DNA of 64,000 nt, from the NCBI GenBank assembly GCA_950097015.1, contig CATNEN010000001.1, positions 620,001 through 684,000 on the forward strand. The letters are read 5' to 3'. This DNA comes from Macrostomum hystrix. Its lineage: Eukaryota; Animalia; Platyhelminthes. Shown here in pieces: positions 32,623 to 54,510 of this stretch; the first letter of the stretch is position 1; every line of letters begins with the position of its first letter. The position numbers and the translations under genes are program-made. The notes under the pieces were generated by a model, which was not told where the DNA came from, ran no database searches, and saw nothing but the letters and a program-made list of their open reading frames with translations.

Positions 32623-33104
32623 TGTGTTTAAAGTTTTTCTCAAGAAACAGTTTTGATTATACTGACGTTCTGTGAGGCTTTCAATGCATGCAATATTTCA
32701 ATACTGTAATATTGATATTGCTCTGTCATCTTTATGTTAGGCTCTTAAATATATTTCTGATTAGTGATTTTCTTTTTCAAATAAATTTTCAATGATTGGG
32801 TTCGCAACGACCAGGGGCAGGCAGTAAAAGAGATAATAAGGTAGCACAAGCATTCAGATGAAACTCATTCAGTCAGGACTATGCAGAACTAAACTGATCA
32901 TCATAAACAGCTTGACACAGCCTACACAAACTCAGCCAGCCCATCATGTCACTGCGGTTTTGTTACTCAAGCTGCTAATTTTTACCCTCGTACAAACACC
33001 GTTTACTAGAACTCGATAGTAACAAAATCCTGTTTGCATAGTGGTTTGGTGTCGATGCTTCTGTCTTCAATCTGTGCAGCAACAAGCGATCGATCTCTTC
33101 AAAA

Positions 33105-34779: not shown

Positions 34780-35184
34780 ATTTTTATATATTATATGTCA
34801 CAGTGGACAGATTAGAGCCGCAGCGAAATTTAATTTGTGATAGCTGACTCCTCAAGGTAAACAGCTTTATAATCTGAATTCGCTAGTTCAACTGGATTTT
34901 TATATATTTATTCGCAATTAAAATACACAAAGCTTCGTGTGAAACTTTGAGTCTGGACACATGCTGAAACAAAGACTTCTCAACACTCGTAATCATACTC
35001 GAAAAAATGCAGAAAAATTTTTACTACGCATTCGTAAAATCTCAACTGTGACAACAGCACGGCTTATTCGTGTATCAACGACCATAGACACTCGTGCTCT
35101 TCGGCACGTGAAGATATTCAAGATACACTCGAACTCCAAGTTAAGTATAATGTACAAACACCCATTTACTAGAACTTGATCGCC

Positions 35185-38999: not shown

Positions 39000-39970
39000 A
39001 GTAGTATGCAAGAGGGGGCTTCTAGGACAAAAATAATCGCAGCCTCCATTATCCACAAACCATTACTTTTATTATTCCCGAAGAGATCAGGAAAAAAAGG
39101 GTCCCCGCCTCTCTCTAAAAAACTCCGTCTCCATATTCTAAATTCTCTACTTTTAATATCCCACATCAGTTTGTAAGTTGAATATCTAGGACAAAAATTA
39201 TCGCAGCCTCCTTAATGCACAAACCATTACCTTTCCTGAAGGAACAAGGTTCCCCCGCCAAAAAAAAATACTTTCCAGTTTGTGAGTTGCACATCTTGGA
39301 CAAAACAAATTATCGCAGCCACTCCCTAAGAGATCATGCACAAAATAGCGAAGCTGCAAAAAGCGTGCCAAGACAATCAAATTAGCACTAAAATCCCAAT
39401 CAAGACCCCAAACCTTGGGTGCTCATCCTCCGAAAAAAAATTAAATTCTTATTAAAAATGCTCCCAATCGTCTCTCCAGGATCTTATTACAAAAGTCATG
39501 AGCCTAATTACAAGAGTAAGTACCAATGCAAACAAGAATGCAGCGAGTACATGAAGAAATATTGTCCCAACGTCGATATCAATGTCCCTAATATTAATCT
39601 AGCAGTTAAGAGTCACTGGTTTCATAAGTATGGAGTAACCTACGTCAAGGACTACGACAGCTACTATAACTTTGCAGAAATCATTAGGCAGCTTACATTC
39701 TCTCAATGATCAACGTCAATACAAACTCTTCACCGTTGAAATCAACGCCAACACCATCTTCAGTCTCAAACTGCAGCTCAATCTCGTGAATCTCCTTATT
39801 ACTTAGCACAACTCTTTTCACTGGATTTGGTTTCTCTACCAGCATCTGTCCTCCAGCAACAGAGTTTGAGATGTTGTACAAAATATTCGTTCGCTTTCCC
39901 TTAAACACCCAATCAAGACTGAGATTACTTCTGATTAGAATATTCAAACCCTTTACAATGTCTGCGATAT
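39000..39970 (+). repeat. Left terminal inverted repeat of the Polinton
   Basis: Reverse complement of 53414-54381 with only a few differences. Confidence 0.96.
39458..39709 (+). CDS. 83-aa TIR-encoded hypothetical protein (left copy)
   Basis: ATG in the AAAAATG context shared by most element genes. MLPIVSPGSYYKSHEPNY...CKQEC...KSHWFHKY. Identical translation in the right TIR. Confidence 0.6.
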   Translation: MLPIVSPGSYYKSHEPNYKSKYQCKQECSEYMKKYCPNVDINVPNINLAVKSHWFHKYGVTYVKDYDSYYNFAEIIRQLTFSQ

Positions 39971-40063
39971 ATTTAGTCTTTCAGCAATCGCTTTAAGAGT
40001 CAGTAGTTAAGAGTTAAGAGTTAAGAGTAAGAGTAAGAGTTTAACAGTTAAGAGTCACTGGTT

Positions 40064-41049
40064 TCACAAGAGTATCAAAGGATCGTCTTCAGCCGCTGCT
40101 TGACCGTCTCCAGCACCAGCAGGCTGGCAAGCTTCAGCATCTGCAGCAAAAGTTTAGTGGTAGTATTTACATTAGAGTGCTATAGTTTTATAAAAGAGAG
40201 ACACAGAGGAGAGAGCGTAGCACACATATTGGGTGGGCCAATAATACACACGGTTTTTCCTTCAATTCACACATATTGGGTGGGCCAATAATACACACGG
40301 TTTTTCCTTCAATTCACACATATTGGGTGGGCCAATAATACACACGGTTTTTCCTTCAATTCACACATATTGGGTGGGCCAATAATACACACGGTTTTTC
40401 CTTCAATTCACACATATTGGGTGGGCCAATAATACACACGGTTTTTCCTTCAATTCACACATATTGGGTGGGCCAATAATACACACGGTTTTTCCTTCAA
40501 TTCACACATATTGGGTGGGCCAATAATACACACGGTTTTTCCTTCAATTCACACATATTGGGTGGGCCAATAATACACACGGTTTTTCCTTCAATTCACA
40601 CATTTTAATTTTTCTAGTAGACTCACAATGCTCATATAGAAGGCCCTGAAGTTCAGCCGCTGATGGAGGTCTTGTTGGGGGAGTCGGATCTTGCCAATCT
40701 TCTGCATCCGTTTGCCACCACCTTTCGCTCCGAATTGTCCTAGAGTTTTCATGCAGGAATGTAGCCGAAACAGAGCAAAAGCGGAGCCGCGGAAGCTCGG
40801 TCACCAAAGTATAGATGTTATGGCGGGATTGCACGTGGTAGTAACTCACACTGAACAGTTCTGCCAGGCTTGTTAAAGTATGCTGATGCCTTGTCATAAA
40901 TTGGTCATTCCTTGTAGCGAAGCACGAGCTCACCCTTTGAAGGCATGATCGCTTGGTATACAATAGTAAGCTGACAAGGAGCACAGCGATGCGAGCGAAA
41001 TGCTCTTTGCTCCTTGTCTTCTCTCAGTATTTAAAAGCTCAATACTCAT
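40064..41049 (-). CDS. Possible 3-exon spliced small acidic/Pro-rich viral gene: 41049-40934, 40739-40627, 40140-40064 (101 aa)
   Basis: GTGAGC and GTGAGT donors, CTAG and TTTTGCTGCAG acceptors, all phases in frame. No homology recognised. Confidence 0.3.
40221..40603. repeat. Eight identical 47-bp tandem repeats inside the Polinton
   Basis: CACACATATTGGGTGGGCCAATAATACACACGGTTTTTCCTTCAATT starting at 40221, 40268, ... 40550. Confidence 0.97.
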
Positions 41050-41188
41050 GCAGTCAGCAAATCGATTTTTTAGTCCGTTCCTATGATCAGACAAATGCCC
41101 TCCAATTGGCGCGCTTTCTGCCAAAAAAGTCTCGGCGGCGCTTTTTGTGCCAGCTGGCAGACTTTTTGGCAGAATTTTTTTGCTTGAA

Positions 41189-41632
41189 TCATTCTGCTCT
41201 CTCAACCCCCAGCTCTTTCAGCAGTCTTCCTAGTTCTTTACTTGGAGCATGCAATACAAAGCCCACCCCACCAATCCCCAACCCCAACTTTGTCTTACCA
41301 AAAATAACAGCTTTAACTAGCTTCCGAGCGATCGATTCCCTCCACCCGCTTGAAGCCGCCATATTGTCTAGCATTCTGAGCATTTCTTTGTCCCAGCGAG
41401 TCTTCTCCTCTGGAAAATCCCTATACTTAATATCATGCCACATACAGACAGAGTCTAGCTCGTTCACAGGCTCATGCCCAGGATTTGGATTATTGTTTTT
41501 ATCTAGCTGTATTTCAAGCGGATTCAAAGGCCCGCAATATTTGTAGCCGGGAATTGTCCAGCCTTTGTTTGGATGAGGAAGCTTTTCTACCAGTCCATGT
41601 GAATCTAGTTTACCACCAGAGCGTTGCATCAT
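41189..41632 (-). CDS. Parvovirus VP1u-like phospholipase A2 (Polinton PLA2), 147 aa
   Basis: TIPGYKYCGPLNPL (Ca-binding loop) and PVNELDSVCMWHDIKY (HD catalytic motif). Start at AAAAATGATG, 41632. Confidence 0.88.
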   Translation of the reverse strand: MMQRSGGKLDSHGLVEKLPHPNKGWTIPGYKYCGPLNPLEIQLDKNNNPNPGHEPVNELDSVCMWHDIKYRDFPEEKTRWDKEMLRMLDNMAASSGWRESIARKLVKAVIFGKTKLGLGIGGVGFVLHAPSKELGRLLKELGVERAE

Positions 41633-41659
41633 TTTTATAAAAAAATTAAATAAAAAATA

Positions 41660-42649
41660 ATGACAGATCAGAAACTTCAAAAGCTCTACTACAGCGACAA
41701 AGGATTCTTTGTAGGAAAAAATGCAGTCACCAAACTCGCAGAACTAAGTAATGAATCAAAACAAACAGTTGAAAGATGGCTCTCCAAGCAAGCAGTTTAC
41801 CAAGTCTATTTCCCACCTGTTAAATTTACAAGACCTCACTTTAACATCTATAAACCTAATGAAGCGCACCAAGCAGATCTTCTGTTTCTCCCCAATGACT
41901 CAGGCTACAAGTATGCGCTCACTGTTATAGACATTGCCTCCAGATATAAAGAAGCCAGACCGCTTAAGACTAAGAAGTCAGAAGCAGTTGCAGCTGCCCT
42001 CCAAGACATTTACAAAAACTCACCGCTCACATACCCCCAAACCTTTATGACTGATCCTGGCAAAGAATTCATGGGGGCAGTCAAATCCCTTATGGAAAAG
42101 AACAATACGAAAATGCGCTACGGAAGAACTGAGCTCCATAGAGACCAGGCTTTTGTTGAAAGATTCAATCTAACTCTAGCAAAGAGACTTTTCACAAAGC
42201 AGACAGCTGAAGAGCTGAAACTAAAAAGTGGCCAATACTATACCAAGTGGACAGAAAGACTCCCCGCAGTAATAAGTCAACTGAACAATGAAGTATCTCG
42301 AATGACAAACCTGAAACCAAATACTGCCATCAAACAAGACACAGTTGAATCAAAACATCCGATCGCCAATTTCAACTATCCAAAGCTCCCTGGCGTTTAT
42401 TCTCCGGAAATTCTTACTAACTCTGAATTCGTTCGCTTCCTTTACTTACCAGGAGAGCTAGAAAAGGACACAAAGAGAAGAGCAACAGACCCATACTTTA
42501 GTCTTGATGTACATAAGATAAACAGGCATTTCACATCAGCATCCGGCGATTACTATTTTCTATCCCAAGACTTTAATTCAAAAGCCCCCACACGATCATT
42601 CACAAGGGCTGAGCTTCTAGTGATTCCACATGACACAGAAATAAATTAA
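41660..42649 (+). CDS. Retroviral-like (rve) DDE integrase
   Basis: HQADLLF, LTVIDIASRY, FMTDPGKEF, QAFVERFNLTL motifs. Confidence 0.95.
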   Translation: MTDQKLQKLYYSDKGFFVGKNAVTKLAELSNESKQTVERWLSKQAVYQVYFPPVKFTRPHFNIYKPNEAHQADLLFLPNDSGYKYALTVIDIASRYKEARPLKTKKSEAVAAALQDIYKNSPLTYPQTFMTDPGKEFMGAVKSLMEKNNTKMRYGRTELHRDQAFVERFNLTLAKRLFTKQTAEELKLKSGQYYTKWTERLPAVISQLNNEVSRMTNLKPNTAIKQDTVESKHPIANFNYPKLPGVYSPEILTNSEFVRFLYLPGELEKDTKRRATDPYFSLDVHKINRHFTSASGDYYFLSQDFNSKAPTRSFTRAELLVIPHDTEIN

Positions 42650-42666
42650 ATTTTTTTTTAAATAAA

Positions 42667-43095
42667 ATGATTGAAACCAGAACCGTGAATAAAATCAGCA
42701 GAATTATCGACTCTAAGAAGCCAGGAGTTGTATCAATTAAAGGTGTCAAAGTCAAAGTAGATCCAATCCAGCAAATGATCCATTGTAACAATCAAACGCA
42801 CAATATCACTGATGAGAAGACAGGTGGGATTCTTCCTTTGCTAACTCTTATCCCCATCATCGCAGGTGCTCTTGGTGCTGCAGGAGGTGTAGCCGGCGGA
42901 GTTGCATCAGCTGTGAAGGCTGGCAATGACAGAGCACATCAACAAGAGATGGAGAAAATCGCTAGAGAAAAAGGAGTCAGAATCGGGGGTAGTTGTGAAT
43001 CTGATGAATCAGCTGATGAATCAGTCAGCAAATCAGAAATCGTTAAAGCCATCATGACACTGCACAAAGCAGGATTTACAATACTCCGGATGTGA
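42667..43095 (+). CDS. Putative virion core/membrane-active precursor with an adenovirus pX-like segment, 142 aa
   Basis: KTGG-ILPLLTLIPIIAGALGAAGGVAGGVASAV resembles adenovirus pX GG-ILPLLIPLIAAAIGA. A second GG site occurs at VRIGGS. Confidence 0.7.
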   Translation: MIETRTVNKISRIIDSKKPGVVSIKGVKVKVDPIQQMIHCNNQTHNITDEKTGGILPLLTLIPIIAGALGAAGGVAGGVASAVKAGNDRAHQQEMEKIAREKGVRIGGSCESDESADESVSKSEIVKAIMTLHKAGFTILRM

Positions 43096-43219
43096 AAACA
43101 GAACAGAACAGAATCTGCTCTCATAACTATATTTAGCACTGTTGGTAGTAGTTTGCCATACTTTACACTTCACTTGAGGGTGACCACCCTAAAATTTTTT
43201 TATAAAATTTTCATTAAAA

Positions 43220-46200
43220 ATGCCTAAAGCAATTCCAGAAAAAAAATTTGTCGAATCTTTCTTTCAAAATTATTGTCCTCAAGCCTCTTCTTTTCAGCAG
43301 AAAAGTAAAGTTTTGCAAGAGCTTTGCAGGCAGAAATTCAATACAGATCCAGGCTACCTCGGGAGCTATGCAAAGATGCAAGAAATTATTAATCAGCTTC
43401 TGCATTCAGAGCAGTACACACCCGTGATGAACCCTGCAGCTGAGCATCAACAAAAGAGCCGCAGCTTAGTCAATAAGTATGAGACACTCACAGGTCAAAA
43501 TGTGTTGAAATACCCACAGAATAAGCAAGAGCAAGAAGATCTAGAACGTACAATCCACCAGGTTGAAGCAGAGCTACAAGTAGAGCTACAAACTGAAGAC
43601 CTTAAATTTGCACAGAGAAAATTCACAGAGTATTATATTGAGTACACAATCCAGGAAGACACCACAAATTCCCAATCCGACATTTACGACTTCAAAGACA
43701 GAATTCAATCAGTAATTGATCACACACTGAAGTCACGTAAGACCTTCAAGCTTCAGTTATCATTCAAGATTGAATTTTACATGCCTGCAAAACCCACTGA
43801 GCGTCTTGAATACTACATGACTACTAAAGCTCTACCCTTTACTCCCACTGACACACAGGATCCCTTTCTTCAAGAGATCAGTAAAAAGATTGACGCCTTT
43901 ACTTCCAGAGGATCAGGTTGGGTTGTCAATGGCATTCAAAAAGCTACAGTAATGATCATGAAATATGACCCTCTCAAAGCTTCATCATATATTGTGCTCC
44001 CGAAAAAGTTAGCGGATAAAAAAGCTTGCATCAATGTGCAAAATGATGACCAATGCTGCGCACTATGGGCAGTTTGGTCTGCAATATTGTATGAGAAAGA
44101 TCGAGCCCACCCAGAGAGAACTTCTCATTATAAAATGTATTTTGACGCAAAACTTTTAGAATGCCATGCTAAAGGAATTTCCTTCAATAGAGGTGGCTTG
44201 GCAATCGATCAAATCCCAAAGCTAGAGGAAGTATTTAACAATAAAATCAGAATCACAGTCTTTGAATGGAATGAGAAGAGCGAAAAAGTACAGTTAGTCA
44301 GAGCCAGTAAAAACACGCTAGATCCTGAAGGTAGGCGTCGCATAGATGTCGATCTTCTAATCATAGGTGATTTGCGAGAAAATGCCCACTACGTTTGGAT
44401 TAAAGATCTTTCCAGGCTCCTCCACAAGCAAATGAACAATCATCATGAATCGGTAGCAATCTGTCGTCTTTGTCTGAAGCATTATAGTGGACCCGATCGT
44501 GATGAAAAACTTAAAGAGCATGAACTGACCTGTGAAGATCATCCAACCAACTGCACACTTCCAACGGATAAGCATCTCAGATTTAAGAGTTATCACAAGA
44601 TGGAGAAGCTCCCGTTTATAGTATACGCTGACTTTGAATGCACTATAAACCCTGAAACCAATAAGCATGTCCCAAATTCTGTTGCATATCTCTTTATTGG
44701 AAGAGACTCTTTTATTGACTCAAAGTATTTCTTAGGTGACCAGTGTGTTGAACAATTCATTTACTCGATGATGGAATTACAGAAAAATGTTGCTGCCATT
44801 CAGCCTGTTCGAATAATTATGTCCGATCAAGATGAAATCGACTTCGGATCTGCAACTCATTGTCACATTTGCCGAAAGCTATTAACACCCTGCGACGTCA
44901 AAAACCACACAGTCAGAGACCACGATCACTTCACAGGAAAATTTAGAGGGGCAGCTCATAACACCTGTAATCTGAAACTTCAGAAAAACATCCGCGACCT
45001 TACCATTTTCTTCCATAACGGAAGGGGATATGATTATCACTTATTGGTTGAGAAGCTGGGTATGATACCAGGCATTAAACTAGATTGCATCGCAGAGAAC
45101 AAAGAAAAGTTCAAGTGCATTGATATTAAGCGAGATTCAGGCAAGATTAAGATCAAAGATTCATTCCAGTTTCTGGCCGCCAGTCTCGATGCTTTGAGTA
45201 AAAATCTCACCGATGACCAATGTACTTATACCAAGATGCTGGCAGATTCCCTCAATCCTAGAACCCCAGATTCATTTAAGCTTCTTAGAAAGAAAGGTGT
45301 CTACCCTTATGAATGTAATCACGTCTTTGCAGAACCACTACCACCCAAGGACAAGTTCTTTTCAAAGCTAACAAACTCTGGGATTTCTGATGAAGATTAT
45401 GAGCATGCTCAGACTGTTTACAAACATTTTAACTGTCGAAACTTTCTTGATTATCACATGCTTTACCTTTGGACTGATGTCTTTCTTCTAGCTGATGTAT
45501 TTGAAACCTTTAGAAAGACCTGGTACTCTGCTTATGGTCTTGACCCTGCTCATTATGTGTCTTTGCCTGCTACCAGTTGGGAATCATTGCTTAAAATGAA
45601 ATGGGATCAAAATCCCAACTGGTACATCGAGCTGCTTACAGACATAGACATGTACAACTTTATAGATTCATCTAAGAGAGGGGGCATCTCAATTTGTGTC
45701 CATAGGCATGCAAAGGCGAACAATCCGTATCTAGAAGACTATGATAAAGAAAAGCCTTCAAACTACATCATTTATCTGGATGCCAACAACCTCTATGGTT
45801 GGGCTATGAGCCAAGATTTACCTGTTAGAGATTTTAGGTGGCTAGATACTTATAAACTCGACTTTTCAATACCTGCGATCTATGAAGTTGATGTTGAAAT
45901 CCCAAGGGAACTTCACGACGATTTCTCTGACTTTGCCCCCTTCCCTGAGAACATTAACTGTCCAAAGATAATCCAGTACAATGATGGAAGCTGGCAGCTA
46001 TCTGAAAAAGAAAAAGAGCGTGTGAAAAAGTTAACACAAAATCTCATGAACAAGACACGCTATAAAATCCACTTCAAACTGTTGCAGTATTTTATCTCCC
46101 TAGGCTGTAGGGTCACGAAAGTTCACAGAGCTCTCGCATTCACAGAAGAAGCGTGGATGAAGCCATACATAGAAAAAAACACCCAGTTTAGAACTAAAGC

Positions 46201-47026
46201 AACAAACAGCTTTGACAAGGACCTGTTCAAGCTTGCAAACAACTCTGTCTATGGCAAGACCCTAGAAAACGAACGCAACCGCACGAACCTGAAGCTCGTT
46301 ACCTGTTATGAGCCTGGTACTATTCAGACAAGTTTATCAAAGCCCACTTTCAAAGAGCTTCATATCTTTAATGATTACTTGGGTGCCATACTGTTCTATA
46401 AGACTAAAGTTACCCTATGCAAGCCGATATTCACAGGTGTGACTGTACTCGATGAGTCGAAGCGTCTGATGTATAAATTCTTCTATGACATGAAGCGGCA
46501 ATATGGTGAACAACTGAAACTTCTATATACTGACACAGACTCCCTAATTCTAAACATACAGACTGAGGATGTCTATCAGGACATGTTGAATCAAAAACAT
46601 CTGTATGACCTATCCGAATATCCAGAGTCCTTCAAGACTTTGAAAGGTGATCAAGTACGCGACACTGGAAATCAAAAAGTTGTAGGAAAAATGAAGGATG
46701 AAACGGCTGGCACCCTCATTACAGAGTTTATCGGTTTGAGGGCAAAGTCCTATTTTGTAAAAAGTTGTAAGTCTACCATTAAAAAATCAAAAGGAATCCC
46801 AAAACATGTTGTTAAAAACGATCTCCATGAAGCTTCATACAAGGACGCATTGATCAATAATAAAAGTACTACTCATGAATTTATGAAACTGCAGTCTAAG
46901 AACCACAACATTCACACAATTCAACAGAAGAAGATAGGCCTCTCAGGTGCCGATAACAAACGACATATCTTTGATGACAACATTAACAGCCTACCATTTG
47001 GACACTATAGATTAAATAATTTGTAA
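43220..47026 (+). CDS. polB: Protein-primed family B DNA polymerase, 1268 aa
   Basis: Exonuclease motifs IVYADFEC, FFHNGRGYD and YLWTDV. Polymerase motifs YLDANNLYGWAM, KLANNSVYGK and YTDTDS. Inserted CHIC..RDHDHFTGKFRGAAHNTCN (EndoVII/HNH-like). Confidence 0.97.
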   Translation: MPKAIPEKKFVESFFQNYCPQASSFQQKSKVLQELCRQKFNTDPGYLGSYAKMQEIINQLLHSEQYTPVMNPAAEHQQKSRSLVNKYETLTGQNVLKYPQNKQEQEDLERTIHQVEAELQVELQTEDLKFAQRKFTEYYIEYTIQEDTTNSQSDIYDFKDRIQSVIDHTLKSRKTFKLQLSFKIEFYMPAKPTERLEYYMTTKALPFTPTDTQDPFLQEISKKIDAFTSRGSGWVVNGIQKATVMIMKYDPLKASSYIVLPKKLADKKACINVQNDDQCCALWAVWSAILYEKDRAHPERTSHYKMYFDAKLLECHAKGISFNRGGLAIDQIPKLEEVFNNKIRITVFEWNEKSEKVQLVRASKNTLDPEGRRRIDVDLLIIGDLRENAHYVWIKDLSRLLHKQMNNHHESVAICRLCLKHYSGPDRDEKLKEHELTCEDHPTNCTLPTDKHLRFKSYHKMEKLPFIVYADFECTINPETNKHVPNSVAYLFIGRDSFIDSKYFLGDQCVEQFIYSMMELQKNVAAIQPVRIIMSDQDEIDFGSATHCHICRKLLTPCDVKNHTVRDHDHFTGKFRGAAHNTCNLKLQKNIRDLTIFFHNGRGYDYHLLVEKLGMIPGIKLDCIAENKEKFKCIDIKRDSGKIKIKDSFQFLAASLDALSKNLTDDQCTYTKMLADSLNPRTPDSFKLLRKKGVYPYECNHVFAEPLPPKDKFFSKLTNSGISDEDYEHAQTVYKHFNCRNFLDYHMLYLWTDVFLLADVFETFRKTWYSAYGLDPAHYVSLPATSWESLLKMKWDQNPNWYIELLTDIDMYNFIDSSKRGGISICVHRHAKANNPYLEDYDKEKPSNYIIYLDANNLYGWAMSQDLPVRDFRWLDTYKLDFSIPAIYEVDVEIPRELHDDFSDFAPFPENINCPKIIQYNDGSWQLSEKEKERVKKLTQNLMNKTRYKIHFKLLQYFISLGCRVTKVHRALAFTEEAWMKPYIEKNTQFRTKATNSFDKDLFKLANNSVYGKTLENERNRTNLKLVTCYEPGTIQTSLSKPTFKELHIFNDYLGAILFYKTKVTLCKPIFTGVTVLDESKRLMYKFFYDMKRQYGEQLKLLYTDTDSLILNIQTEDVYQDMLNQKHLYDLSEYPESFKTLKGDQVRDTGNQKVVGKMKDETAGTLITEFIGLRAKSYFVKSCKSTIKKSKGIPKHVVKNDLHEASYKDALINNKSTTHEFMKLQSKNHNIHTIQQKKIGLSGADNKRHIFDDNINSLPFGHYRLNNL

Positions 47027-47057
47027 CAAAATTTGTTACAAAAAATTTGTAAAAAAA

Positions 47058-47468
47058 ATGACAACCAATATTTTTTTAGAAGATCTAGCTCAGCAATTAA
47101 AAATCCCAAACTTCAGAGGCGTCTTTATGAAGGATACACTGCCAGAAACCCCACTAGAAAAAGAATGTGGAATCATGAACTTTGACCCTGCAGAAAAGCC
47201 AGGTTCTCATTGGGTTTGTTGGGTAATTGATCCGAACCGTAAACACAAGTACTATTACTTTGATAGCTATGGAACTGCTGTACCCGAACAACTGAGAAAT
47301 TATATGACTCATATGAGACATAAAATGAGACATAAAATATACCGCTCAGATTTTATACTCCAGGGTATTAACAGTGATATTTGTGGTGAGCTATGTATGA
47401 CTGTTTTGTATGCAATGACCCACACCCGAAAGAGTTACAAAGAAATCATTTTAGGGCTGAAAAAATAA
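47058..47468 (+). CDS. Adenain-like cysteine maturation protease
   Basis: GSHWVCW (His), YFDSYG (Asp), LQGINSDICGELC (Gln, Cys). Confidence 0.92.
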   Translation: MTTNIFLEDLAQQLKIPNFRGVFMKDTLPETPLEKECGIMNFDPAEKPGSHWVCWVIDPNRKHKYYYFDSYGTAVPEQLRNYMTHMRHKMRHKIYRSDFILQGINSDICGELCMTVLYAMTHTRKSYKEIILGLKK

Positions 47469-47493
47469 TTTTTTTAGGTCCCGTTAGGTCCTG

Positions 47494-48129
47494 TTAGGTC
47501 TTGTTCATTTTCGCTGCTTTCGCCACATGCTGTTTGAACACATTCTCCAGATCATTTCTTAGCTGGCTCATTTCATCAATGGTATTTAGATTAAGCCTAA
47601 CTCGTTGCTCATAGAGGTCTTGAATGTTTTTAAACTCATCCTCTGAAATGAACTTGTCTTCAATCGCCTTTGAGATGTACCCGATGATAGAGCTTTGTAC
47701 TGATTTCTCATTTGTTTGCTTCGCATGTAGATGCTTTAGCTTTTGTCGTCTGTTCCGTGATAGTGCTCCTGTAACTGCTGAAATCAGACCACATGTGGCA
47801 CCAGCAGCTCCGAGTGGAATGGCGATTGGTACAGTGATTACAGGAAGTGTTGAAACAGCAGCTGCTGATCCCGATAGAACAGATACAGATCCAAGAAACA
47901 TATTAAGGTAATCGAAGACCTTGCACTCTCTATTATAGCGCTTCAGTTTCTTGGTATTATGATCAATTTGCCGTTTAATATCATCTCGCATCTTTTGAAT
48001 CTCCACCAATCTGAATTGCTGCGAGTTACAAGTGAAAGTAACTGGGGTTGGGTAGATGGGTTGGTAAGGAGCACTAGGTTGGCTTGGAGGCGCACTAGGT
48101 TCATATAGAGAGTTAATTTTTTCAGACAT
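47494..48129 (-). CDS. Putative membrane protein with two N-terminal PSAP motifs and a central hydrophobic hairpin, 211 aa
   Basis: LYEPSAPPSQPSAPYQPIYP, then a helical basic segment, then ~50 uncharged residues YLNMFLGSVSV...ISAVTGALS, then RNRRQKLK. Confidence 0.8.
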   Translation of the reverse strand: MSEKINSLYEPSAPPSQPSAPYQPIYPTPVTFTCNSQQFRLVEIQKMRDDIKRQIDHNTKKLKRYNRECKVFDYLNMFLGSVSVLSGSAAAVSTLPVITVPIAIPLGAAGATCGLISAVTGALSRNRRQKLKHLHAKQTNEKSVQSSIIGYISKAIEDKFISEDEFKNIQDLYEQRVRLNLNTIDEMSQLRNDLENVFKQHVAKAAKMNKT

Positions 48130-48160
48130 TTATTGAACGAAAAAAAATTATATAAATTTT

Positions 48161-48889
48161 TTATGACCTTTCTCGCAAATCTGTTGCACGCCTTGCCGCC
48201 TCCCTTGATGCCTCTTCTGATGGTCCATCAGATACTCTTGCTTCTTCAATGTCAATGTCTGGCAGATTGTGCAGTCTCTCTAGTCGGCCGAGTCTTCTTT
48301 TCGTTTTCCCCCAGTCGTTGTATATCCTATTCAAATACTCAGTGTGTCTTGTTACGTTTAGCCCCATGGGTCTTAGTGTTTCCTTTGTTTCATTTGCTAG
48401 TCTCTGAAGAGCTGTTATATCTGACTCTGCTGCTGTGAGTCGCGAACTCAATCTATCATGCACAGTGCTTGATCTTAGCATAAAGGCTTCTAAATTTCGA
48501 ACTTTATTTGAATTTTCTGTTACTCTTTCTTCCACCAAGTTTGCTCGATTATTAACGGCAGTTCTCAGAGTGGCGATGTCTGATCTTAGAGTGGCGATGT
48601 CTGATCTCAGAGTGGGTATCGCTGCAACAAGAGTATCCCGATCATGAACAAACTGTACATATAGTATGTCAATCTCTTCCTTCCGTTTTGCTACGCTCAA
48701 CCGCAGGTCTTCCATGTTTATTTGTTGTTGGTGTGTTGCCCGCTCTAGGGCTTTCAAGCGATCTTTATTGAGTTTGATTTCTGGAATTTTTTCGTCAACA
48801 TTTATATAACGCCTGTCAAGGTAAGAAACTTGAGCACTAGTGAGTGTGCTTCCGCGATCCAACGATTCACCTGCAAAATTAATAGACAT
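48161..48889 (-). CDS. Coiled-coil, possibly fibre-like protein, 242 aa (start MSINFAG)
   Basis: Heptad repeats LRSDIAT-LRSDIAT-LRTAVN and LSSRLTAAESDITALQ. AAAAAAATG start context. Confidence 0.7.
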   Translation of the reverse strand: MSINFAGESLDRGSTLTSAQVSYLDRRYINVDEKIPEIKLNKDRLKALERATHQQQINMEDLRLSVAKRKEEIDILYVQFVHDRDTLVAAIPTLRSDIATLRSDIATLRTAVNNRANLVEERVTENSNKVRNLEAFMLRSSTVHDRLSSRLTAAESDITALQRLANETKETLRPMGLNVTRHTEYLNRIYNDWGKTKRRLGRLERLHNLPDIDIEEARVSDGPSEEASREAARRATDLRERS

Positions 48890-48906
48890 TTTTTTAATAA
48901 CAAAAT

Positions 48907-49707
48907 TTAAATTACAGTTCTTTTTTCTTTGTTGATCATCACAAACTGGTAAGGTTGATTCCACTTTTCATAGCAAAGATTAACGAATTCCTCCTGTGAA
49001 ATCTTTCTGTTGGAGTTTTTTGTTGGATTTGCAAAATTGGCAGGCGCAATGACCTCATTGTAAAATCTTTTTAGCCTGTCCTGTGGAATTGTTGGAAACA
49101 GGAGGATCAGATTGCAGTTCCCGCGAATTGTTTTGTTCGGGAGCTCGAACCAGTTCTGGGCAATGTAAATCACGTTACAATTGTTGTGCCGTCCTCTTGT
49201 AAAATAGTTTTCTATCTGCTTCTGTGGGCCTGTCATGCAATCATCAAAGACAATCAAATGTTTTCTCCCCTTTTCTAGCTCATCTGGTTGGGGTAGAAGT
49301 TTGGTCTTAGGATCAACCTGCGGATCTCCGTATGTGAACACTTTAATGTTCTGCCATTTTTCATTGTCTTTGAGGTGCTTTGCAAATTCGGCAGCTACAA
49401 TTTCTGGGTTACTGGGAAGGCTCTTTTGGTTATTAAAACATTGAATAATGTGTTCTTTGTGCAGTCTGTTTTGAAGTCCAGAGATCAACATTTTATACTC
49501 ATCTTGATACAGGGTGGGAGAGTAGATGTGTAGAGTGTCATAGTCGATAAAGCCAGGTCTAAGAAGCATGTTAAAGACTCTGAATGTTTTGCCTGAACCT
49601 GACGAACCAACAACAATGCATCTGAAGTGACTCGGGATTGACTCATGATGAGAAAACTTAATCTGATTACGTGTCCAGTGAGGATTGAAGTCGTTTGAAA
49701 AGTCCAT
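48907..49707 (-). CDS. A32/FtsK-like genome packaging ATPase, 266 aa
   Basis: Walker A GSSGSGKT, Walker B LIVFDD, and RGRHNNCNVIYIAQ. Confidence 0.95.
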   Translation of the reverse strand: MDFSNDFNPHWTRNQIKFSHHESIPSHFRCIVVGSSGSGKTFRVFNMLLRPGFIDYDTLHIYSPTLYQDEYKMLISGLQNRLHKEHIIQCFNNQKSLPSNPEIVAAEFAKHLKDNEKWQNIKVFTYGDPQVDPKTKLLPQPDELEKGRKHLIVFDDCMTGPQKQIENYFTRGRHNNCNVIYIAQNWFELPNKTIRGNCNLILLFPTIPQDRLKRFYNEVIAPANFANPTKNSNRKISQEEFVNLCYEKWNQPYQFVMINKEKRTVI

Positions 49708-49752
49708 TTTTCTATGATTAAAAAAAATTAAAAAAAAGTAAATCATTTAGAA

Positions 49753-49891
49753 TATGTGTCTAGGACTTAGATGTGTCTAGGACTTAGATGTGTCTATTTG
49801 GGACTTAGATGTGTCTATTTGGGACTTAGATGTGTCTATTTGGGACTTAGATGTGTCTATTTGGGACTTAGATGTGTCTTTTTGGGACTAG
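49753..49891. repeat. 21-bp tandem repeat GGGACTTAGATGTGTCTATTT (with shorter variants) upstream of the ATPase gene
   Basis: About 6-7 copies between the ATPase start and the stop of the 139-aa ORF. Confidence 0.9.
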
Positions 49892-49932
49892 TCTTGTACC
49901 CTTACATGTCTTGTACCCTCGAAAAGCACCCT

Positions 49933-50352
49933 TTAGTCAAATTTGAAACCACTTCCTTTTTTAATGCTAGCTATGCTGGCTCTCATCTTCTCGTAGATTG
50001 CAGGGTCCACACTGTCTGGATTCGGGGCCAGCGGAGCCAGCGGAGCCAGCGGAGCCAGCGGAGCCAGCGGAGCCATTGGTGGCTGAATATCTTGTGTTAC
50101 AGTATCCTTTATCTTTTTAGCCGCAGTGACAACGCTTCCCACAGATTCAGCCACGTTCTTAATATTATCTTTGTTCTCACTAATGACTTTAAAGACCCGA
50201 GCACCCTGTGCAATTATATCAGCAAGACCATTCCCGGAGCGTTCTTTCCTCGGATAGTGGCCTGCCGGGAAAAGTCCGGATCCACGCTTAATTAGATTAA
50301 GTTCCTCCTTGTCATAGTATTTGTCCACGTCTTTTTCGAAAATAATCGGCAT
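49933..50352 (-). CDS. Hypothetical virion-associated precursor with GxG motifs, 139 aa
   Basis: KRGSG-LF, RSGNG-LADIIAQGARVF (amphipathic), C-terminal KKGSG-FKFD, and an (APL)n repeat. Confidence 0.7.
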   Translation of the reverse strand: MPIIFEKDVDKYYDKEELNLIKRGSGLFPAGHYPRKERSGNGLADIIAQGARVFKVISENKDNIKNVAESVGSVVTAAKKIKDTVTQDIQPPMAPLAPLAPLAPLAPLAPNPDSVDPAIYEKMRASIASIKKGSGFKFD

Positions 50353-50369
50353 TTTTATTAGGGAAGAAA

Positions 50370-51551
50370 TTATTTTTTGTTAAAACGTGAAAGCAGAAGC
50401 TCTCTTGCCCGTTTGTCGATATACTTCTTTTCCATCATTTTGTCCAGGATGTTGACAAATTCTTTTCTATTTTCGTCTTTCATGCCAGTCTTTGCAGCTC
50501 CAAGAAGAACAGCCACTCGCTTATAGATGTCAGAAATTCCTTTTCCTTGAAATGATTGGTCGGCAGAGGACTGGTCGGTGGAGGACTGGGGTGAACTCTC
50601 AACTGCTCTTTGTTGTGGTGTGAACACTCTTGCTTTGATTTTATTCATTTGAGCTGGGGAGAAATTTTCTAGTTGTTGCCAGGCATCTGGGTGATCATTT
50701 TTATATTTAGCTACTTGAGTCGGATCTGCATTTTCAAGGGCACTGAGTATGTCTTCGGGTTTGATTGTTTGTTGCTGCTGTGGCGGTTGCTGCTGGGGCG
50801 GTTGCTGCTGGGGCGGTTGCTGCTGTGGCGGTTGCTGTTCTAGATATTTTATGGCATCTTCTTGATCTGGCAAACCAAACCATTGTTTAAAATGCTTGTA
50901 CTTTTTGAATCTAGTCAGGATGACACCGTTGTCATGCATTATTTTCAGAACTTGTGGGACCTTTAGTATTTCTATATCTCTTGCAAGAGCAAAACTCACT
51001 AGATCTCTATAGTTCTTTAGCTGCTTGTCCGAAATTTTCTCTTGGTTTTTAGTCATAAAATTCAGTAAGGTTTCTGTGTAAATTATTCTCTTAGTTTCTG
51101 AGCCTTTGACAACAGAAATATGGTTCTTGTTTATGTCGATATAATATTCCACTGGTTCATTATAAATGTTTTTTCTCCACATACTTATTCCAAATACATA
51201 TTTCCCATCATGTTCTACACGTTCTACTGGTCCAAAAATGTTATCTGTCACTTTTAGTTGTGACTGTTGTGGGACTTGGACTTGCGGATCTGCAGATTGT
51301 TGTATCTGCGGTGCTTCTGGAATTTTGCCCAAAGCCTTTTGCACCTGGGTTTCCTGTATGTCGTCAATAGTTTCTTTGACTTGATCAATATTTTTCTTAG
51401 CTTCTCCATACCCGGGTTTATGAAACTCTGTGGCTGCTTGGACAAACTCATTGTAGGATTGTTGCTCCTTATTGATTAGCCCGGTAACTCTCTTTTCTGC
51501 TTGTGCTAGCTTCTCCAATTCAGATATTTGGTGCGCATTTTTTCGCTTCAT
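50370..51551 (-). CDS. Polinton hypothetical protein, 393 aa
   Basis: Long ORF divergent from the MCP gene. N-terminal helical region, (QQQPP)n repeat, C-terminal GKG-ISDIYKRVAVLLGAAKTG...EFVNILDKM. Confidence 0.75.
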   Translation of the reverse strand: MKRKNAHQISELEKLAQAEKRVTGLINKEQQSYNEFVQAATEFHKPGYGEAKKNIDQVKETIDDIQETQVQKALGKIPEAPQIQQSADPQVQVPQQSQLKVTDNIFGPVERVEHDGKYVFGISMWRKNIYNEPVEYYIDINKNHISVVKGSETKRIIYTETLLNFMTKNQEKISDKQLKNYRDLVSFALARDIEILKVPQVLKIMHDNGVILTRFKKYKHFKQWFGLPDQEDAIKYLEQQPPQQQPPQQQPPQQQPPQQQQTIKPEDILSALENADPTQVAKYKNDHPDAWQQLENFSPAQMNKIKARVFTPQQRAVESSPQSSTDQSSADQSFQGKGISDIYKRVAVLLGAAKTGMKDENRKEFVNILDKMMEKKYIDKRARELLLSRFNKK

Positions 51552-51580
51552 TTCTTATTTTATTTTTTTAGTTTAAAAAA

Positions 51581-52867
51581 ATGAACGACCCACTGACACC
51601 AGTTTTCTACAAAATTAACAAGCCTATTTTGAGTGATGATAGCACAATCAAAGCGACTCAAGTAAGAGTTCCCAGTCAGGAAAATCAGAATGAAACTAAT
51701 CTTGGTCCTGGTCAAACACTGACATTCACCTACAATGGATGTTCGTCTCTGGTTAGTGTGCACAGTCTTAAGAGCGGCTTCCATATGACATTTCAATTCA
51801 AGACAAAGGGAGGTGCGGATGCAGCTCATGCTAACGTTGACAAGCATGATGCAGATGTGGCTCTGATCAGTAACTTTTGGGCGTACATGTTCAAGGAGTT
51901 TAGTGTATCGAATGGGAGCACAGAGTTGGAGCGAATCGCCAACTTTGGAGTTGTCTATGACGCTCATTGTTTGATCGAGAATCCAGATTTTATTCAGTTG
52001 GGGAGTGGTGCAGGTTTCGTTGCAGATGAAAAAGAAGGAGATATCAATGACAGTGGCTATAAAAAGAGGAAGAAGAGATACAACTATGCATTGCAAGGTG
52101 CTGATGATGCTGCTAAGAACCCGCTGTATCGGTCTGTTGATGTATTCGTACCACTGAGATTCATGAGTGGATTCTGTAATACATTTAATCGACTGACTAG
52201 TAACTTCAGCTACACCTTTAAGATGACTAGAGATGATCGCAGTAGAGCGTTGTGGACTGGGGCGGACCACACTAGGATGGAGGTGAAGCTAACCGGAATC
52301 GAGCTGTATTTGGAAGTCATTGAGCCAAAGACCGCACTAAAAGCAGACTATCTCAAGGCAATAGAGAAGGACATTGATGTCGCCTACACGGCCTACATGT
52401 GTCGAGATGAGCGAAACGAAACCAGAACAAACATCTGCATTAAAGAGGGATCATGCAGCAATCCTAGGTATATTATTATTAACATGAGAAACCCAAATAA
52501 CATTATACGCTACATGCATGGAGATGTGCGGTCCATTCAGCATGAAATCAGTGATAATCTTTACCCCGCACTGCCACAAAATGGAAATTTCAGTCAGAAC
52601 AAGATTAGCAAATTTTACAGCGAGTTGGTCGACTTGGCTGTGAAAGAGAACAATGGAATTGCTATCACTGCTCTTCAATATGGAACTCTTTATCCGATGT
52701 TTGGCGCTGATGTGTCTGCCAGACAAATGCCTACTGACAACAGCCCTGTGAATATCGTGACTAACATTGAGAGGACTGCCGCAACTGCTGTTGACCTGTA
52801 CATTATCTATGCGTTCGAGAGGAAGGTGAAGCTTAACATGATCAACAATTCATCCAGTAAAGTTTAA
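51581..52867 (+). CDS. Major capsid protein (double jelly-roll), 428 aa
   Basis: Size, beta-rich pattern, VFVPLRFMSGFC motif, and position immediately upstream of the minor capsid gene. Fold inferred, not computed. Confidence 0.8.
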   Translation: MNDPLTPVFYKINKPILSDDSTIKATQVRVPSQENQNETNLGPGQTLTFTYNGCSSLVSVHSLKSGFHMTFQFKTKGGADAAHANVDKHDADVALISNFWAYMFKEFSVSNGSTELERIANFGVVYDAHCLIENPDFIQLGSGAGFVADEKEGDINDSGYKKRKKRYNYALQGADDAAKNPLYRSVDVFVPLRFMSGFCNTFNRLTSNFSYTFKMTRDDRSRALWTGADHTRMEVKLTGIELYLEVIEPKTALKADYLKAIEKDIDVAYTAYMCRDERNETRTNICIKEGSCSNPRYIIINMRNPNNIIRYMHGDVRSIQHEISDNLYPALPQNGNFSQNKISKFYSELVDLAVKENNGIAITALQYGTLYPMFGADVSARQMPTDNSPVNIVTNIERTAATAVDLYIIYAFERKVKLNMINNSSSKV

Positions 52868-52890
52868 ATATTTTTTTTCGGGGCTGAAAA

Positions 52891-53691
52891 ATGGAAGCGA
52901 TTGCTGAAAGACTAAATAATATTATTTCTCACTCTAAGGAGAGCATTCCTATTACAATAGCTGGGCGAATTAATGACGCAAACGGGATATTTGTTGAAAA
53001 ATTAGAGCAGGCGATTCGTCTGGATCCAGGTGCTAATTACCATGTATATCTTAACGACTTCACTGGTTGGTCAAACGTTCCCAATGTGACAGCAGCAAAT
53101 AATAAGTTTCATTACAAATGGAAAGGTGTAGCAGCAGCAGAAACTGTGGTATTCCCTGTGAGCACGCAAAGTGTGGATACCTACAATTACTTTCTAGAAA
53201 GTGTTTTTACTAAAAGAGGCCATTTTGAGACACCCAATGCGAGTAAGCCAGAGCAGAAACTGTTCCCTGTCAAACTATCCTATGATCTCACTGTAATGAG
53301 AGTGGTCATGCAAGTTCACAAAGATGCTGAGGTTGAATTTAAAGATGACACATGGTATAGGGAATTGGGATTCGAGAAGAAAGTGTATAAAAGCGGTCTG
53401 TTCTTAGCACCTAATATCGCAGACATTGTAAAGGGTTTGAATATTCTAATCAGAAGTAATCTCAGTCTTGATTGGGTGTTTAAGGGAAAGCGAACGAATA
53501 TTTTGTACAACATCTCAAACTCTGTTGCTGGAGGACAGATGCTGGTAGAGAAACCAAATCCAGTGAAAAGAGTTGTGCTAAGTAATAAGGAGATTCACGA
53601 GATTGAGCTGCAGTTTGAGACTGAAGATGGTGTTGGCGTTGATTTCAACGGTGAAGAGTTTGTATTGACGTTGATCATTGAGAGAATGTAA
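52891..53691 (+). CDS. Minor capsid protein (penton, single jelly-roll), 266 aa
   Basis: WSNVPNVTAANNKF, ILIRSNL..ILY..GGQMLVEKPNPV and C-terminal IELQF...VDFNGEEFVLTLII, as recalled for Polinton pentons. Confidence 0.82.
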   Translation: MEAIAERLNNIISHSKESIPITIAGRINDANGIFVEKLEQAIRLDPGANYHVYLNDFTGWSNVPNVTAANNKFHYKWKGVAAAETVVFPVSTQSVDTYNYFLESVFTKRGHFETPNASKPEQKLFPVKLSYDLTVMRVVMQVHKDAEVEFKDDTWYRELGFEKKVYKSGLFLAPNIADIVKGLNILIRSNLSLDWVFKGKRTNILYNISNSVAGGQMLVEKPNPVKRVVLSNKEIHEIELQFETEDGVGVDFNGEEFVLTLIIERM

Positions 53692-54381
53692 GCTGCCTAA
53701 TGATTTCTGCAAAGTTATAGTAGCTGTCGTAGTCCTTGACGTAGGTTACTCCATACTTATGAAACCAGTGACTCTTAACTGCTAGATTAATATTAGGGAC
53801 ATTGATATCGACGTTGGGACAATATTTCTTCATGTACTCGCTGCATTCTTGTTTGCATTGGTACTTACTCTTGTAATTAGGCTCATGACTTTTGTAATAA
53901 GATCCTGGAGAGACGATTGGGAGCATTTTTAATAAGAATTTAATTTTTTTTCGGAGGATGAGCACCCAAGGTTTGGGGTCTTGATTGGGATTTTAGTGCT
54001 AATTTGATTGTCTTGGCACGCTTTTTGCAGCTTCGCTATTTTGTGCATGATCTCTTAGGGAGTGGCTGCGATAATTTTTTTTGTCCAAGATGTGCAACTC
54101 ACAAACTGGAAAGTATTTTTTTTTGGCGGGGGAACCTTGTTCCTTCAGGAAAGGTAATGGTTTGTGCATTAAGGAGGCTGCGATAATTTTTGTCCTAGAT
54201 ATTCAACTTACAAACTGATGTGGGATATTAAAAGTAGAGAATTTAGAATATGGAGACGGAGTTTTTAGAGGGGCGAGGACCCTTTTTTTCCTGATCTCTT
54301 CGGGAATAATAAAAGTAATGGTTTGTGGATAATGGAGGCTGCGATTATTTTTGTCCTAGAAGCCCCCTCTTGCATACTACT
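53414..54381 (-). repeat. Right terminal inverted repeat of the Polinton
   Basis: Reverse complement of 39000-39970; includes the 3' third of the minor capsid gene. Confidence 0.96.
53675..53926 (-). CDS. 83-aa TIR-encoded hypothetical protein (right copy)
   Basis: Mirror of 39458-39709. Convergent with the minor capsid gene and overlaps its 3' end by 17 nt. Confidence 0.6.
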   Translation of the reverse strand: MLPIVSPGSYYKSHEPNYKSKYQCKQECSEYMKKYCPNVDINVPNINLAVKSHWFHKYGVTYVKDYDSYYNFAEIIRQLTFSQ

Positions 54382-54510
54382 TTACATTCTCTTCTGAGAT
54401 CTTATTGCTTTATTATTAACATTTAGGTGTTAAAAAGAATAATTTTGTTTTATAACATTTTCACGAAAATACACAATTCCTCTCTTTTCCAAGAAAATAG
54501 TGACTCCGTA

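What the first reader, a model, noticed from the sequence alone, without database searches (positions are those of the whole stretch)
39000..54381. Apparently intact endogenous Polinton/adintovirus-like virus with a full virion module
Seen in sequence: perfect 6-bp TSD, AGTAGT ends, nearly identical ~970-bp TIRs and at least 12 compact intron-free ORFs with no stops or frameshifts. Established knowledge: INT, pPolB, adenain-like protease, A32 ATPase and MCP/mCP define Polintons. Inference: this is a young insertion that may still excise, replicate and form particles. Its capsid proteins look divergent and could represent an undescribed lineage.
Basis: partly seen in the sequence, partly recalled or inferred. 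Interest (0 to 1): 0.85.

Follow-up and report, generated by a model that had tools for sequence, protein, structure and literature searches.

The report
Intact Polinton virus in flatworm genome
A 15-kb virus-like transposon (Polinton/Maverick) with unbroken genes for copying and integrating its DNA and for a capsid sits in what is likely a flatworm genome, likely as one of many young copies; it is a new member of a well-known kind, and whether it makes virus particles is untested.

Summary
Window 39000-54381 is a 15,382-bp Polinton/Maverick with a 6-bp target duplication (TTACAT), AGTAGT/ACTACT ends, 971/968-bp inverted repeats (99.4% alike) and 13 distinct open reading frames. Integrase, polymerase, protease and ATPase keep their catalytic motifs. 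The major capsid protein is a predicted double jelly-roll. The minor capsid protein is supported by homology only; its fold failed. The host is likely a Macrostomum-like flatworm (one gene). In one run, element contigs are roughly 10-30 times deeper than neighbouring DNA; in another, the end joins a different flank. New detail: the inverted repeat has taken in a small gene and the end of the minor-capsid gene, and its inner border varies between copies. A third organism holds the capsid side mostly 95-99+% alike at extreme depth but not the flank (unexplained). Excision, expression and particles were not shown. The capsid forms a small unnamed clade inside a family of thousands. Intact Polintons are well known, and M. 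lignano Polinton polymerases are already tabulated. Verdict: new member of a known kind; interest 0.45.

The parts
38994..38999 (.). Left target-site duplication TTACAT
39000..39970 (+). Left terminal inverted repeat (971 bp), starts AGTAGT, with internal 45-50-bp subrepeats
39458..39709 (+). 83-aa ORF inside the TIR, copy 1; no Pfam or PHROG family; AT-rich leader like the core genes
39693..39993 (-). Relic of the minor-capsid gene: 24 nt of its 5' part (52895-52918) joined to its last 278 nt; 496 nt deleted, out of frame, no start codon
   Evidence: same joint in run X1 at depth 275 (table 5)
40221..40603 (.). Perfect tandem array, 47 bp x 8.1, each unit with two inverted CCAAT boxes; possible enhancer (inference)
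41189..41632 (-). Parvovirus-VP1-like phospholipase A2 (147 aa), YCGP loop and DxxxxxHD motif present
   Evidence: PF08398 E = 9e-15; motif meaning recalled
41660..42649 (+). Retrovirus-like (rve) integrase, 329 aa, D-D-E residues present, no chromodomain
   Evidence: PF00665 E = 2e-9; alignment
42667..43095 (+). Adenovirus protein X-like core protein (142 aa)
   Evidence: PF05829 E = 1e-5
43220..47026 (+). [quoted passage not shown]
   Evidence: motif labels partly recalled
47058..47468 (+). Adenain-like maturation protease (136 aa); H51, D69, Q102, C109 invariant
   Evidence: PF00770 E = 3e-5
47494..48129 (-). 211-aa conserved polintovirus protein with a hydrophobic central stretch, unnamed
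   Evidence: homologues in L004 and L005, E = 3e-16 and 2e-14; profile E = 7e-21
48161..48889 (-). 242-aa likely coiled-coil protein; fibre role is a guess
   Evidence: only weak, sub-cutoff hits; no relative among 25 loci
48907..49746 (-). A32/FtsK-like packaging ATPase; Walker A and B intact; C-terminus shorter than in 8 of 8 homologues
   Evidence: PF04665 E = 3e-6
49933..50352 (-). 139-aa ORF, unknown
50370..51551 (-). 393-aa ORF; C-terminus weakly resembles a conserved polintovirus family (PZ-like; name recalled)
   Evidence: E = 0.018, below inclusion threshold
51581..52867 (+). Major capsid protein, predicted double jelly-roll (428 aa)
   Evidence: PF21738 E = 4e-5; Foldseek top 20 listed rows all double jelly-roll MCPs, best E = 8e-10; VIA-align top 9 all double jelly-roll capsid or scaffold proteins, Z 7.9-11.2; model pLDDT 54
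52891..53691 (+). Likely minor capsid protein (penton), 266 aa; last 278 nt lie inside the right TIR
   Evidence: homologues in 7 of 25 polintovirus loci; profile without the window row E = 6e-29; PDB penton E = 0.097; fold failed
53414..54381 (-). Right terminal inverted repeat (968 bp), ends ACTACT
53675..53926 (-). 83-aa ORF inside the TIR, copy 2, convergent with and overlapping the mCP stop by 17 nt
54382..54387 (.). Right target-site duplication TTACAT

Best explanation
This is a whole Polinton/Maverick with unbroken core genes, likely young and likely one of many near-identical copies in a likely Macrostomum-type flatworm, that likely spreads by leaving the chromosome, copying itself as a linear DNA with its own protein-primed polymerase and re-inserting with its own integrase, and that is predicted to be able to pack that DNA into an adenovirus-like capsid. 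Shown: the ends, the 6-bp duplication, open frames with catalytic residues, the double jelly-roll match of the MCP model, and a second flank at the same terminus in another run. Inferred from Polinton and adenovirus biology: (1) the integrase makes the 6-bp duplication; (2) the terminal-protein/vOTU/polymerase fusion primes at the AGTAGT ends and copies by strand displacement; (3) MCP, penton, ATPase, protease, pX and PLA2 build, fill, mature and deliver a particle. Also inferred: the TIR grew inward over an accessory gene and the mCP gene because a displaced single strand folds into a panhandle and one end is copied onto the other. That points to recent replication outside the chromosome.
For: Ends, TSD and 99.4% TIR identity. 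Six core genes with catalytic motifs and an MCP fold match. Single-contig depths in run X1 are 1045-1802 on the element against 58-110 on neighbouring DNA; in X2, 21-36 against 2 (table 8). A 2,515-nt contig in X4 joins the terminus to a different flank (tables 7, 8). Depth about doubles where mCP enters the TIR in X1, X2 and X4 (1212 vs 2543; 25 vs 44; 11.7 vs 26.8), so TIR capture is shared by many copies. The inner border differs between copies (loose ends at 53414 in X2 and 53700 in X4; the 496-nt joint in X1). Among listed differences between copies, 0 of 29 coding changes are nonsense, and the 3 listed coding indel rows add up to whole codons. Size, TIR length and end motif fall within the 'intact Maverick' definition of PMC8097293 (passages).
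Against: No evidence of expression, of an empty site or of free DNA was obtained. Purifying selection among copies is weak: 12 of 29 synonymous against 21-27% expected, p = 0.009 or 0.07 depending on the transition rate, from 40 of 138 listed rows. The ATPase lacks the C-terminal stretch of 8 of 8 homologues. The penton fold is unconfirmed. Contig depth is only a rough proxy for copy number, and the 'flank' contigs lie inside a second transposon. The host call rests on one gene: 81% to M. lignano over 90 aa, other animals up to 78% over shorter stretches. As of 2021, no Maverick particles had been observed (PMC8097293 abstract).
Confidence: 0.78

Rival explanations
1. The family moves only inside the genome as a self-synthesising transposon. 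The capsid module is intact only because the invasion is recent, and it is no longer used.
For: Many listed coding differences between copies are non-synonymous (17 of 29; MCP 9 of 14) and the selection signal is weak. The ATPase C-terminus is short. No IMG/VR contig is a close relative. CpG observed/expected is 0.59 in the element against 0.87-0.93 in the flanks, which could reflect host silencing.
Against: No nonsense change in 29 and frame-keeping indels. MCP homologues at 71-78% identity come from metagenome and sequencing-run assemblies, six of them full-length. A third organism holds the capsid side mostly 95-99+% alike.
Confidence: 0.3
2. It is a helper-dependent, virophage-like element whose genes are read by the transcription machinery of a large DNA virus, and it is activated only on co-infection.
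For: The 20 nt before the 13 start codons examined average 91% A+T against 60% for all ATGs in the element. 10 of 13 have AAA before ATG against 7% in the background. Spacers between most genes are only 17-31 nt. Related loci share the leader. Polinton-like viruses accompany entomopoxviruses (PMC11296320, passages).
Against: No helper was sought or seen. The word 'promoter' does not occur in PMC11296320. An A-rich leader may simply be a translation context. A CCAAT-box array (40221-40603) and a host-chromosome integrase fit nuclear transcription (inference).
Confidence: 0.12
3. Assembly artefact or contaminant: the element or its long TIRs were mis-joined into host DNA.
For: Long near-identical repeats are hard to assemble. 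No contig bridging this exact junction was among the rows shown (most rows were not displayed).
Against: Exact TSD at both ends. The arms differ at 6 columns. The relic joint in the left arm is seen in run X1. Element and neighbouring DNA occur together in X1 and X2.
Confidence: 0.03

Closest known systems
Intact Mavericks/Polintons of animals (PMC8097293, passages)
   Same: (AGT)2//(ACT)2 ends, 6-bp TSD, size within 12.7-24.6 kb, TIR within 46-1447 bp, intronless pPolB, INT, PRO, ATPase, MCP and mCP.
   Different: Gene order differs (INT, pX, pPolB and PRO together; MCP and mCP at the far end). It has a stand-alone PLA2. The TIR holds an ORF and part of mCP. PZ and PW were not securely identified.
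Adintoviruses, Beta-PolB class (PMC8502044, sections 3.1 and 3.2 read)
   Same: Divergent PolB with no PF03175 hit (6 of 12 aligned members hit, best E = 1e-19), putative OTU Cys/His, adenain, FtsK-like ATPase, rve, hexon, penton candidate and pX.
   Different: It carries PLA2, which that paper calls typical of Alpha virion modules, and PLA2 and pX are separate genes. No gasdermin or cupiennin homologue was identified (not specifically tested). The same Beta-PolB plus PLA2 mix occurs in L002, L004 and L005, so it is not unique.
Environmental polintoviruses L002, L004, L005 (IMG/VR)
   Same: All three share pPolB, PRO, ATPase, MCP, mCP and PLA2; two share INT and two the 211-aa gene; all have AT-rich leaders.
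   Different: Only 37% identity in pPolB, 22-25% in MCP and 21-23% in mCP; different gene order.
Polinton polymerases tabulated for Macrostomum lignano (PMC10748475, Supplementary Table 3; all 78 rows of assembly GCA_002269645.1 seen)
   Same: 8 of 78 rows have the integrase within 1 kb upstream of the polymerase start, as here; one has 1269 codons, the length of this gene.
   Different: The table gives coordinates only, so no sequence comparison was possible and integrase strand is not given. It does not describe capsid genes. The window's host appears to be another species.

Membership tests
Polinton/Maverick (Polintoviricetes) | Terminal inverted repeats with (AGT)2//(ACT)2 or (AG)3//(CT)3 ends | tested here: met
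   971/968 bp, AGTAGT/ACTACT; definition from PMC8097293
Polinton/Maverick (Polintoviricetes) | 6-bp target-site duplication | tested here: met
   TTACAT both sides; chance 6e-4
Polinton/Maverick (Polintoviricetes) | Protein-primed family-B polymerase with Exo and Pol motifs | tested here: met
   3,370 of 7,986 scored candidates at E <= 1e-20, listed hits 37-48% identity; motifs conserved in a 12-row alignment
Polinton/Maverick (Polintoviricetes) | rve integrase with DDE triad | tested here: met
   PF00665 above cut-off
Polinton/Maverick (Polintoviricetes) | Adenain-like protease | tested here: met
   PF00770 above cut-off; H, D, Q, C invariant in 8 rows
Polinton/Maverick (Polintoviricetes) | A32/FtsK packaging ATPase | tested here: met
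   PF04665 above cut-off; Walker motifs intact, C-terminus short
Polinton/Maverick (Polintoviricetes) | [quoted passage not shown] | tested here: met
   on a pLDDT-54 model; PF21738 in 9 of 12 aligned members
Polinton/Maverick (Polintoviricetes) | [quoted passage not shown] | tested here: inconclusive
   Conserved family next to MCP; PDB penton E = 0.097; fold failed; Atlas hits of a homologue were unnamed viral clusters
Polinton/Maverick (Polintoviricetes) | PZ and PW accessory core genes (vertebrate definition) | tested here: inconclusive
   393-aa ORF E = 0.018 to a 3-member profile; pX ORF E = 0.016 to a 3-member profile; the names are recalled
Beta adintovirus (PMC8502044) | Divergent OTU-PolB unlike pfam03175 | tested here: met
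   No PF03175 hit for the window protein at E <= 0.1; Cys and His of the putative OTU shared with 10 and 11 of 11 homologues; no named reference in the tree
Beta adintovirus (PMC8502044) | Hexon and penton clustering with Terrapene-class proteins | not testable with these tools
Beta adintovirus (PMC8502044) | GasderminX and Cupiennin accessory genes | not tested
   No profile held; a PLA2 (Alpha hallmark) is present instead
Bona fide virus | Particles that package the genome | not testable with these tools
   Needs EM, proteomics or nuclease-protection data

The most novel reading that the evidence does not exclude
A Polinton family that is replicating and moving between flatworm species now. 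Its capsid module travels as a near-identical cassette into another species, where it reaches very high copy number or expression, and its ends are actively remodelled by panhandle copying. It would be an animal polintovirus whose particles could be looked for directly in a small cultured animal.
Probability: 0.2. Interest if true: 0.82.

Novelty: new member of a known kind. Interest (0 to 1): 0.45.

Why it matters
Whether animal Polintons make infectious particles was still open in the papers read (PMC8097293, 2021, abstract: particles not observed; PMC11131425, 2024: expression in corals only). Intact copies alone do not settle it; 134 were described in vertebrates. What this family adds is a likely recent burst in a group of small worms kept in laboratories, an extreme and unexplained depth of a close relative in a third organism, and TIR borders caught in the act of moving. 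These make an observational search for free genomes and particles worthwhile. No paper in the held library describes Macrostomum Polintons (2 and 1 papers with passing co-occurrence, listings only), although their polymerases appear in a supplementary table.

Tried and rejected
- No whole genome is held, so copies, empty sites and orthologous loci could not be searched.
- No RNA holder was listed for 45400-55399; this is no evidence on expression.
- Only 50900-56800 was laid (4 of 20 runs), so the polymerase side and the left junction were not examined in reads.
- Single-sequence AlphaFold of the mCP gave pLDDT 32 and was not fold-searched.
- The Atlas does not hold the window's mCP. A homologue gave only unnamed or DUF5901 clusters.
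- PHROGs gave nothing useful for the unknown ORFs. Rfam found nothing in the element at E <= 0.5.
- MCP and mCP scans of IMG/VR and an MCP scan of JGI metagenomes found no relative; the terminal 20-mer had 0 matches in JGI metagenomes.
- The pPolB profile has no meaningful PDB match.
- A fibre role for the 242-aa ORF was not supported by a 7-member profile.
- ORFs at 40544-40897, 40989-41546 and 49771-50295 were set aside: they run into repeats or lie antisense to real genes, and have no Pfam family.
- An adenovirus NFI site in the 47-bp unit was considered; the spacing is 2 nt shorter than the recalled consensus.
- The IQ-TREE polymerase tree did not finish. The FastTree version (40 rows: 18 of 120 listed homologues plus 21 locus proteins) puts the window on a long branch (1.4) among animal-associated homologues, position unresolved.
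- Earlier-findings look-ups by place, by sequence and by six words were empty.
- The supplement of PMC8502044 (one file held, possibly cut) has no Macrostomum, Schmidtea or flatworm entry. RepBase and subscription papers could not be searched.
Full report
1. Observation. The element runs from 39000 to 54381 (15,382 bp). TTACAT flanks both ends, and the termini read AGTAGT and ACTACT; a 6-bp match by chance at local composition is 6e-4. The arms 39000-39970 and 53414-54381 align over 971 columns with 3 substitutions and one 3-nt indel. Thirteen distinct ORFs, each one unbroken frame, cover 81% of it. It matches nothing else in the window.

2. Genes. Pfam names a parvovirus-type PLA2, an rve integrase, an adenovirus pX-like protein, an adenain protease, an A32 ATPase and a double-jelly-roll-like domain. 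The 1268-aa polymerase hits only endonuclease VII in Pfam. It has 3,370 homologues among 7,986 scored candidates, with listed hits at 37-48% identity and named ones from corals, molluscs, an echinoderm and a snake. All exonuclease and polymerase motifs are intact in a 12-row alignment, as are a Cys and a His in the region that PMC11161782 (passages) assigns to the vOTU protease (motif labels partly recalled). Integrase D-D-E, protease H-D-Q-C and ATPase Walker A/B are present. The ATPase ends without the short C-terminal stretch of 8 of 8 homologues, which is the one possible lesion in a core gene. The MCP model is mediocre (pLDDT 54), but the 20 Foldseek rows listed are all double jelly-roll MCPs (best E = 8e-10), and so are the top 9 VIA-align rows, counting a poxvirus scaffold (Z 7.9-11.2, rmsd 5.9-6.9, 257-315 aligned). 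The 266-aa gene after it has homologues in 7 of 25 polintovirus loci. A profile of 8 locus proteins without the window row finds it at E = 6e-29; the rows had been aligned together, so this is slightly favourable. The family's best PDB hit is a penton at only E = 0.097, and single-sequence folding failed. It is likely the penton, not proven. PMC4028283 (passages) places pentons next to or one gene from MCP.

3. An unusual TIR. Each arm holds an 83-aa ORF and the last 278 nt of the mCP gene. Just inside the left arm, 24 nt (39970-39993) are an exact inverted copy of the mCP 5' region (52895-52918). The left end is therefore a relic of nearly the whole gene, with 496 nt deleted and out of frame, and the inverted duplication once reached about 1.49 kb. 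Reads agree. Run X1 shows the same joint at depth 275, in 1 of 4 runs laid. Single-contig depth about doubles inside the TIR part of mCP in X1, X2 and X4. Loose ends mark inner borders at 53414 (X2) and 53700 (X4). So the border moves between copies. I infer end-to-end copying through a panhandle during strand-displacement replication, as recalled for adenovirus; this was not tested.

4. Host and copies. A host RING-ligase exon is closest to Macrostomum lignano (73 of 90 identical), which suggests a related flatworm rather than that species. This rests on one gene. No genome is held. Of 20 runs listed, 8 (organisms A and B, two studies) hold 0.63-0.72 of the words and 11 (organism C) hold 0.08-0.11; none is on record as RNA. 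The best holder may be the source sample. Four runs were laid on 50900-56800. In X1, sole contigs on the element have depth 1045-1802 and contigs on the neighbouring DNA 58-110, roughly 10-30-fold; in X2, 21-36 against 2. The tool warns that depth is not copy number, and the neighbouring contigs lie in a second transposon. X4 has a contig that joins the terminus to another flank. No contig bridging this site or its empty form was among the rows shown. Of 40 listed substitutions (138 in all), 29 are coding: 12 synonymous, 17 missense, 0 nonsense. The excess of synonymous changes is weak (p = 0.009 with equal rates, 0.07 with transitions four times as likely). The 3 coding rows among 12 listed indels (33 in all) add up to whole codons.

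5. The third organism. In X10, 2,440 contigs were laid, 1,812 of them at least 95% alike. Summed depth is 1e4-2e5 over capsid-side coding DNA, far lower at non-coding spacers and the outer TIR, and 0-18 on the flank. An 89-kb longest record favours a DNA library (inference). The pattern fits a very high-copy or amplified relative with different non-coding DNA, or an RNA library. The low word share suggests that only part of the element is shared. Cross-species transfer is plausible, but host divergence was not measured. Unchecked earlier notes of split or capsid-only Polintons in other genomes are leads only.

6. Relatives. The MCP has 8 homologues in the word-index search (43-78%, all from metagenome or sequencing-run assemblies), and none of four window proteins looked up is in the collection. 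A broader profile finds 5,509 clusters at 50% identity. Among the best 150, 3 reach 30% identity over 200 aa or more. In a FastTree of 75 rows (the window, 4 close homologues and the first 70 near-full-length representatives), the window sits in nested clades of 5, 7 and 11 rows, each with support 100; an IQ-TREE of 14 rows gave 90/81 for the group. It is a real small branch in a very bushy family. IMG/VR loci L002, L004 and L005 carry largely the same gene set at 21-39% identity.

7. What is known. PMC8097293 (passages) defines intact Mavericks by these ends, TSDs and intronless genes, reports 134 in 17 vertebrates, and says particles have not been observed. PMC8502044 (sections 3.1 and 3.2) defines Alpha and Beta adintoviruses; this element has a Beta-like PolB with a PLA2 that the paper ties to Alpha virion modules. 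PMC11131425 (passages) reports expression of all core genes in corals. Jeong et al. (bioRxiv passages; supplement of PMC10748475) list 748 integrase-linked polymerases in 8 of 73 flatworm genomes, 78 of them in M. lignano Mlig_3_7 (accession confirmed in PMC12801592, passage). Eight of these 78 have this element's integrase-polymerase spacing and one its exact polymerase length; sequences were not compared. Searches for Macrostomum with Maverick or polinto- returned 2 and 1 papers, none on this topic by title and abstract start. RepBase, subscription papers and bioRxiv supplements were not seen and may hold the family.

8. Mechanism and verdict. Most likely (0.78) this is a young autonomous Polinton that integrates by rve, replicates by protein priming from its AGTAGT ends, and has a capsid module predicted to be usable. 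Ends, genes and multiple insertion contexts are shown; excision, replication, expression and particles are inferred. Rivals, which partly overlap with it: purely intragenomic spread with an idle capsid module (0.30), helper-virus dependence suggested by the AT-rich leaders (0.12), and artefact (0.03). It is a new member of a known kind. The moving TIR border and the third organism's depth lift it above routine. Interest 0.45; if active cross-species spread by particles were shown (probability about 0.2), 0.82.

Noticed in passing
run X10 (organism C) on window 50900-56800: Capsid-side coding DNA is covered by contigs mostly 95-99+% alike with summed depth 1e4-2e5. Depth drops at non-coding spacers (114 at 51562, 2192 at 52886), on the outer TIR (200-490) and on the flank (0-18). 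A word share of 0.11 would fit only about a third of the stretch being shared. Very high-copy DNA relative, amplification, or an RNA library: unresolved.
   Followed up: partly
run X4, contig at window 54218-54382: A 2,515-nt contig joins the element's terminus to other DNA at depth 36.7, deeper than the element body (about 12-16). The junction itself may sit in an amplified repeat.
   Followed up: no
window 54511-57281: A second transposon-like element with 387-bp inverted repeats (99%) begins 130 bp right of the Polinton; no long ORF.
   Followed up: no
window 40221-40603: Perfect 47-bp x 8.1 array with paired inverted CCAAT boxes, next to a patchwork (39993-40070) of short fragments resembling the TIR ORF.
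   Followed up: partly
window 39000-54381: CpG observed/expected is 0.59 in the element against 0.93 and 0.87 in the flanks.
   Followed up: no
window 30866-37625 (minus strand): Cluster of glycine-rich repeats left of the insertion; one ORF hits the ALK/LTK glycine-rich domain (PF12810, E = 5e-11).
   Followed up: partly
window 19259-19771 and 62615-63010 (minus strand): Tc1/mariner-type transposase remnants.
   Followed up: no
window 4724-5593 and 23755-27365 (plus strand): Host genes: a ZNRF-type RING ligase exon and formin FH2 exons, among long minisatellite arrays.
   Followed up: partly
L014:2740-4251 and P0022: A related locus has one 503-aa ORF matching both integrase and protease. A Stylophora protein model joins rve, endonuclease VII, PLA2 and chromo domains, probably a merged gene call over a similar element.
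   Followed up: no
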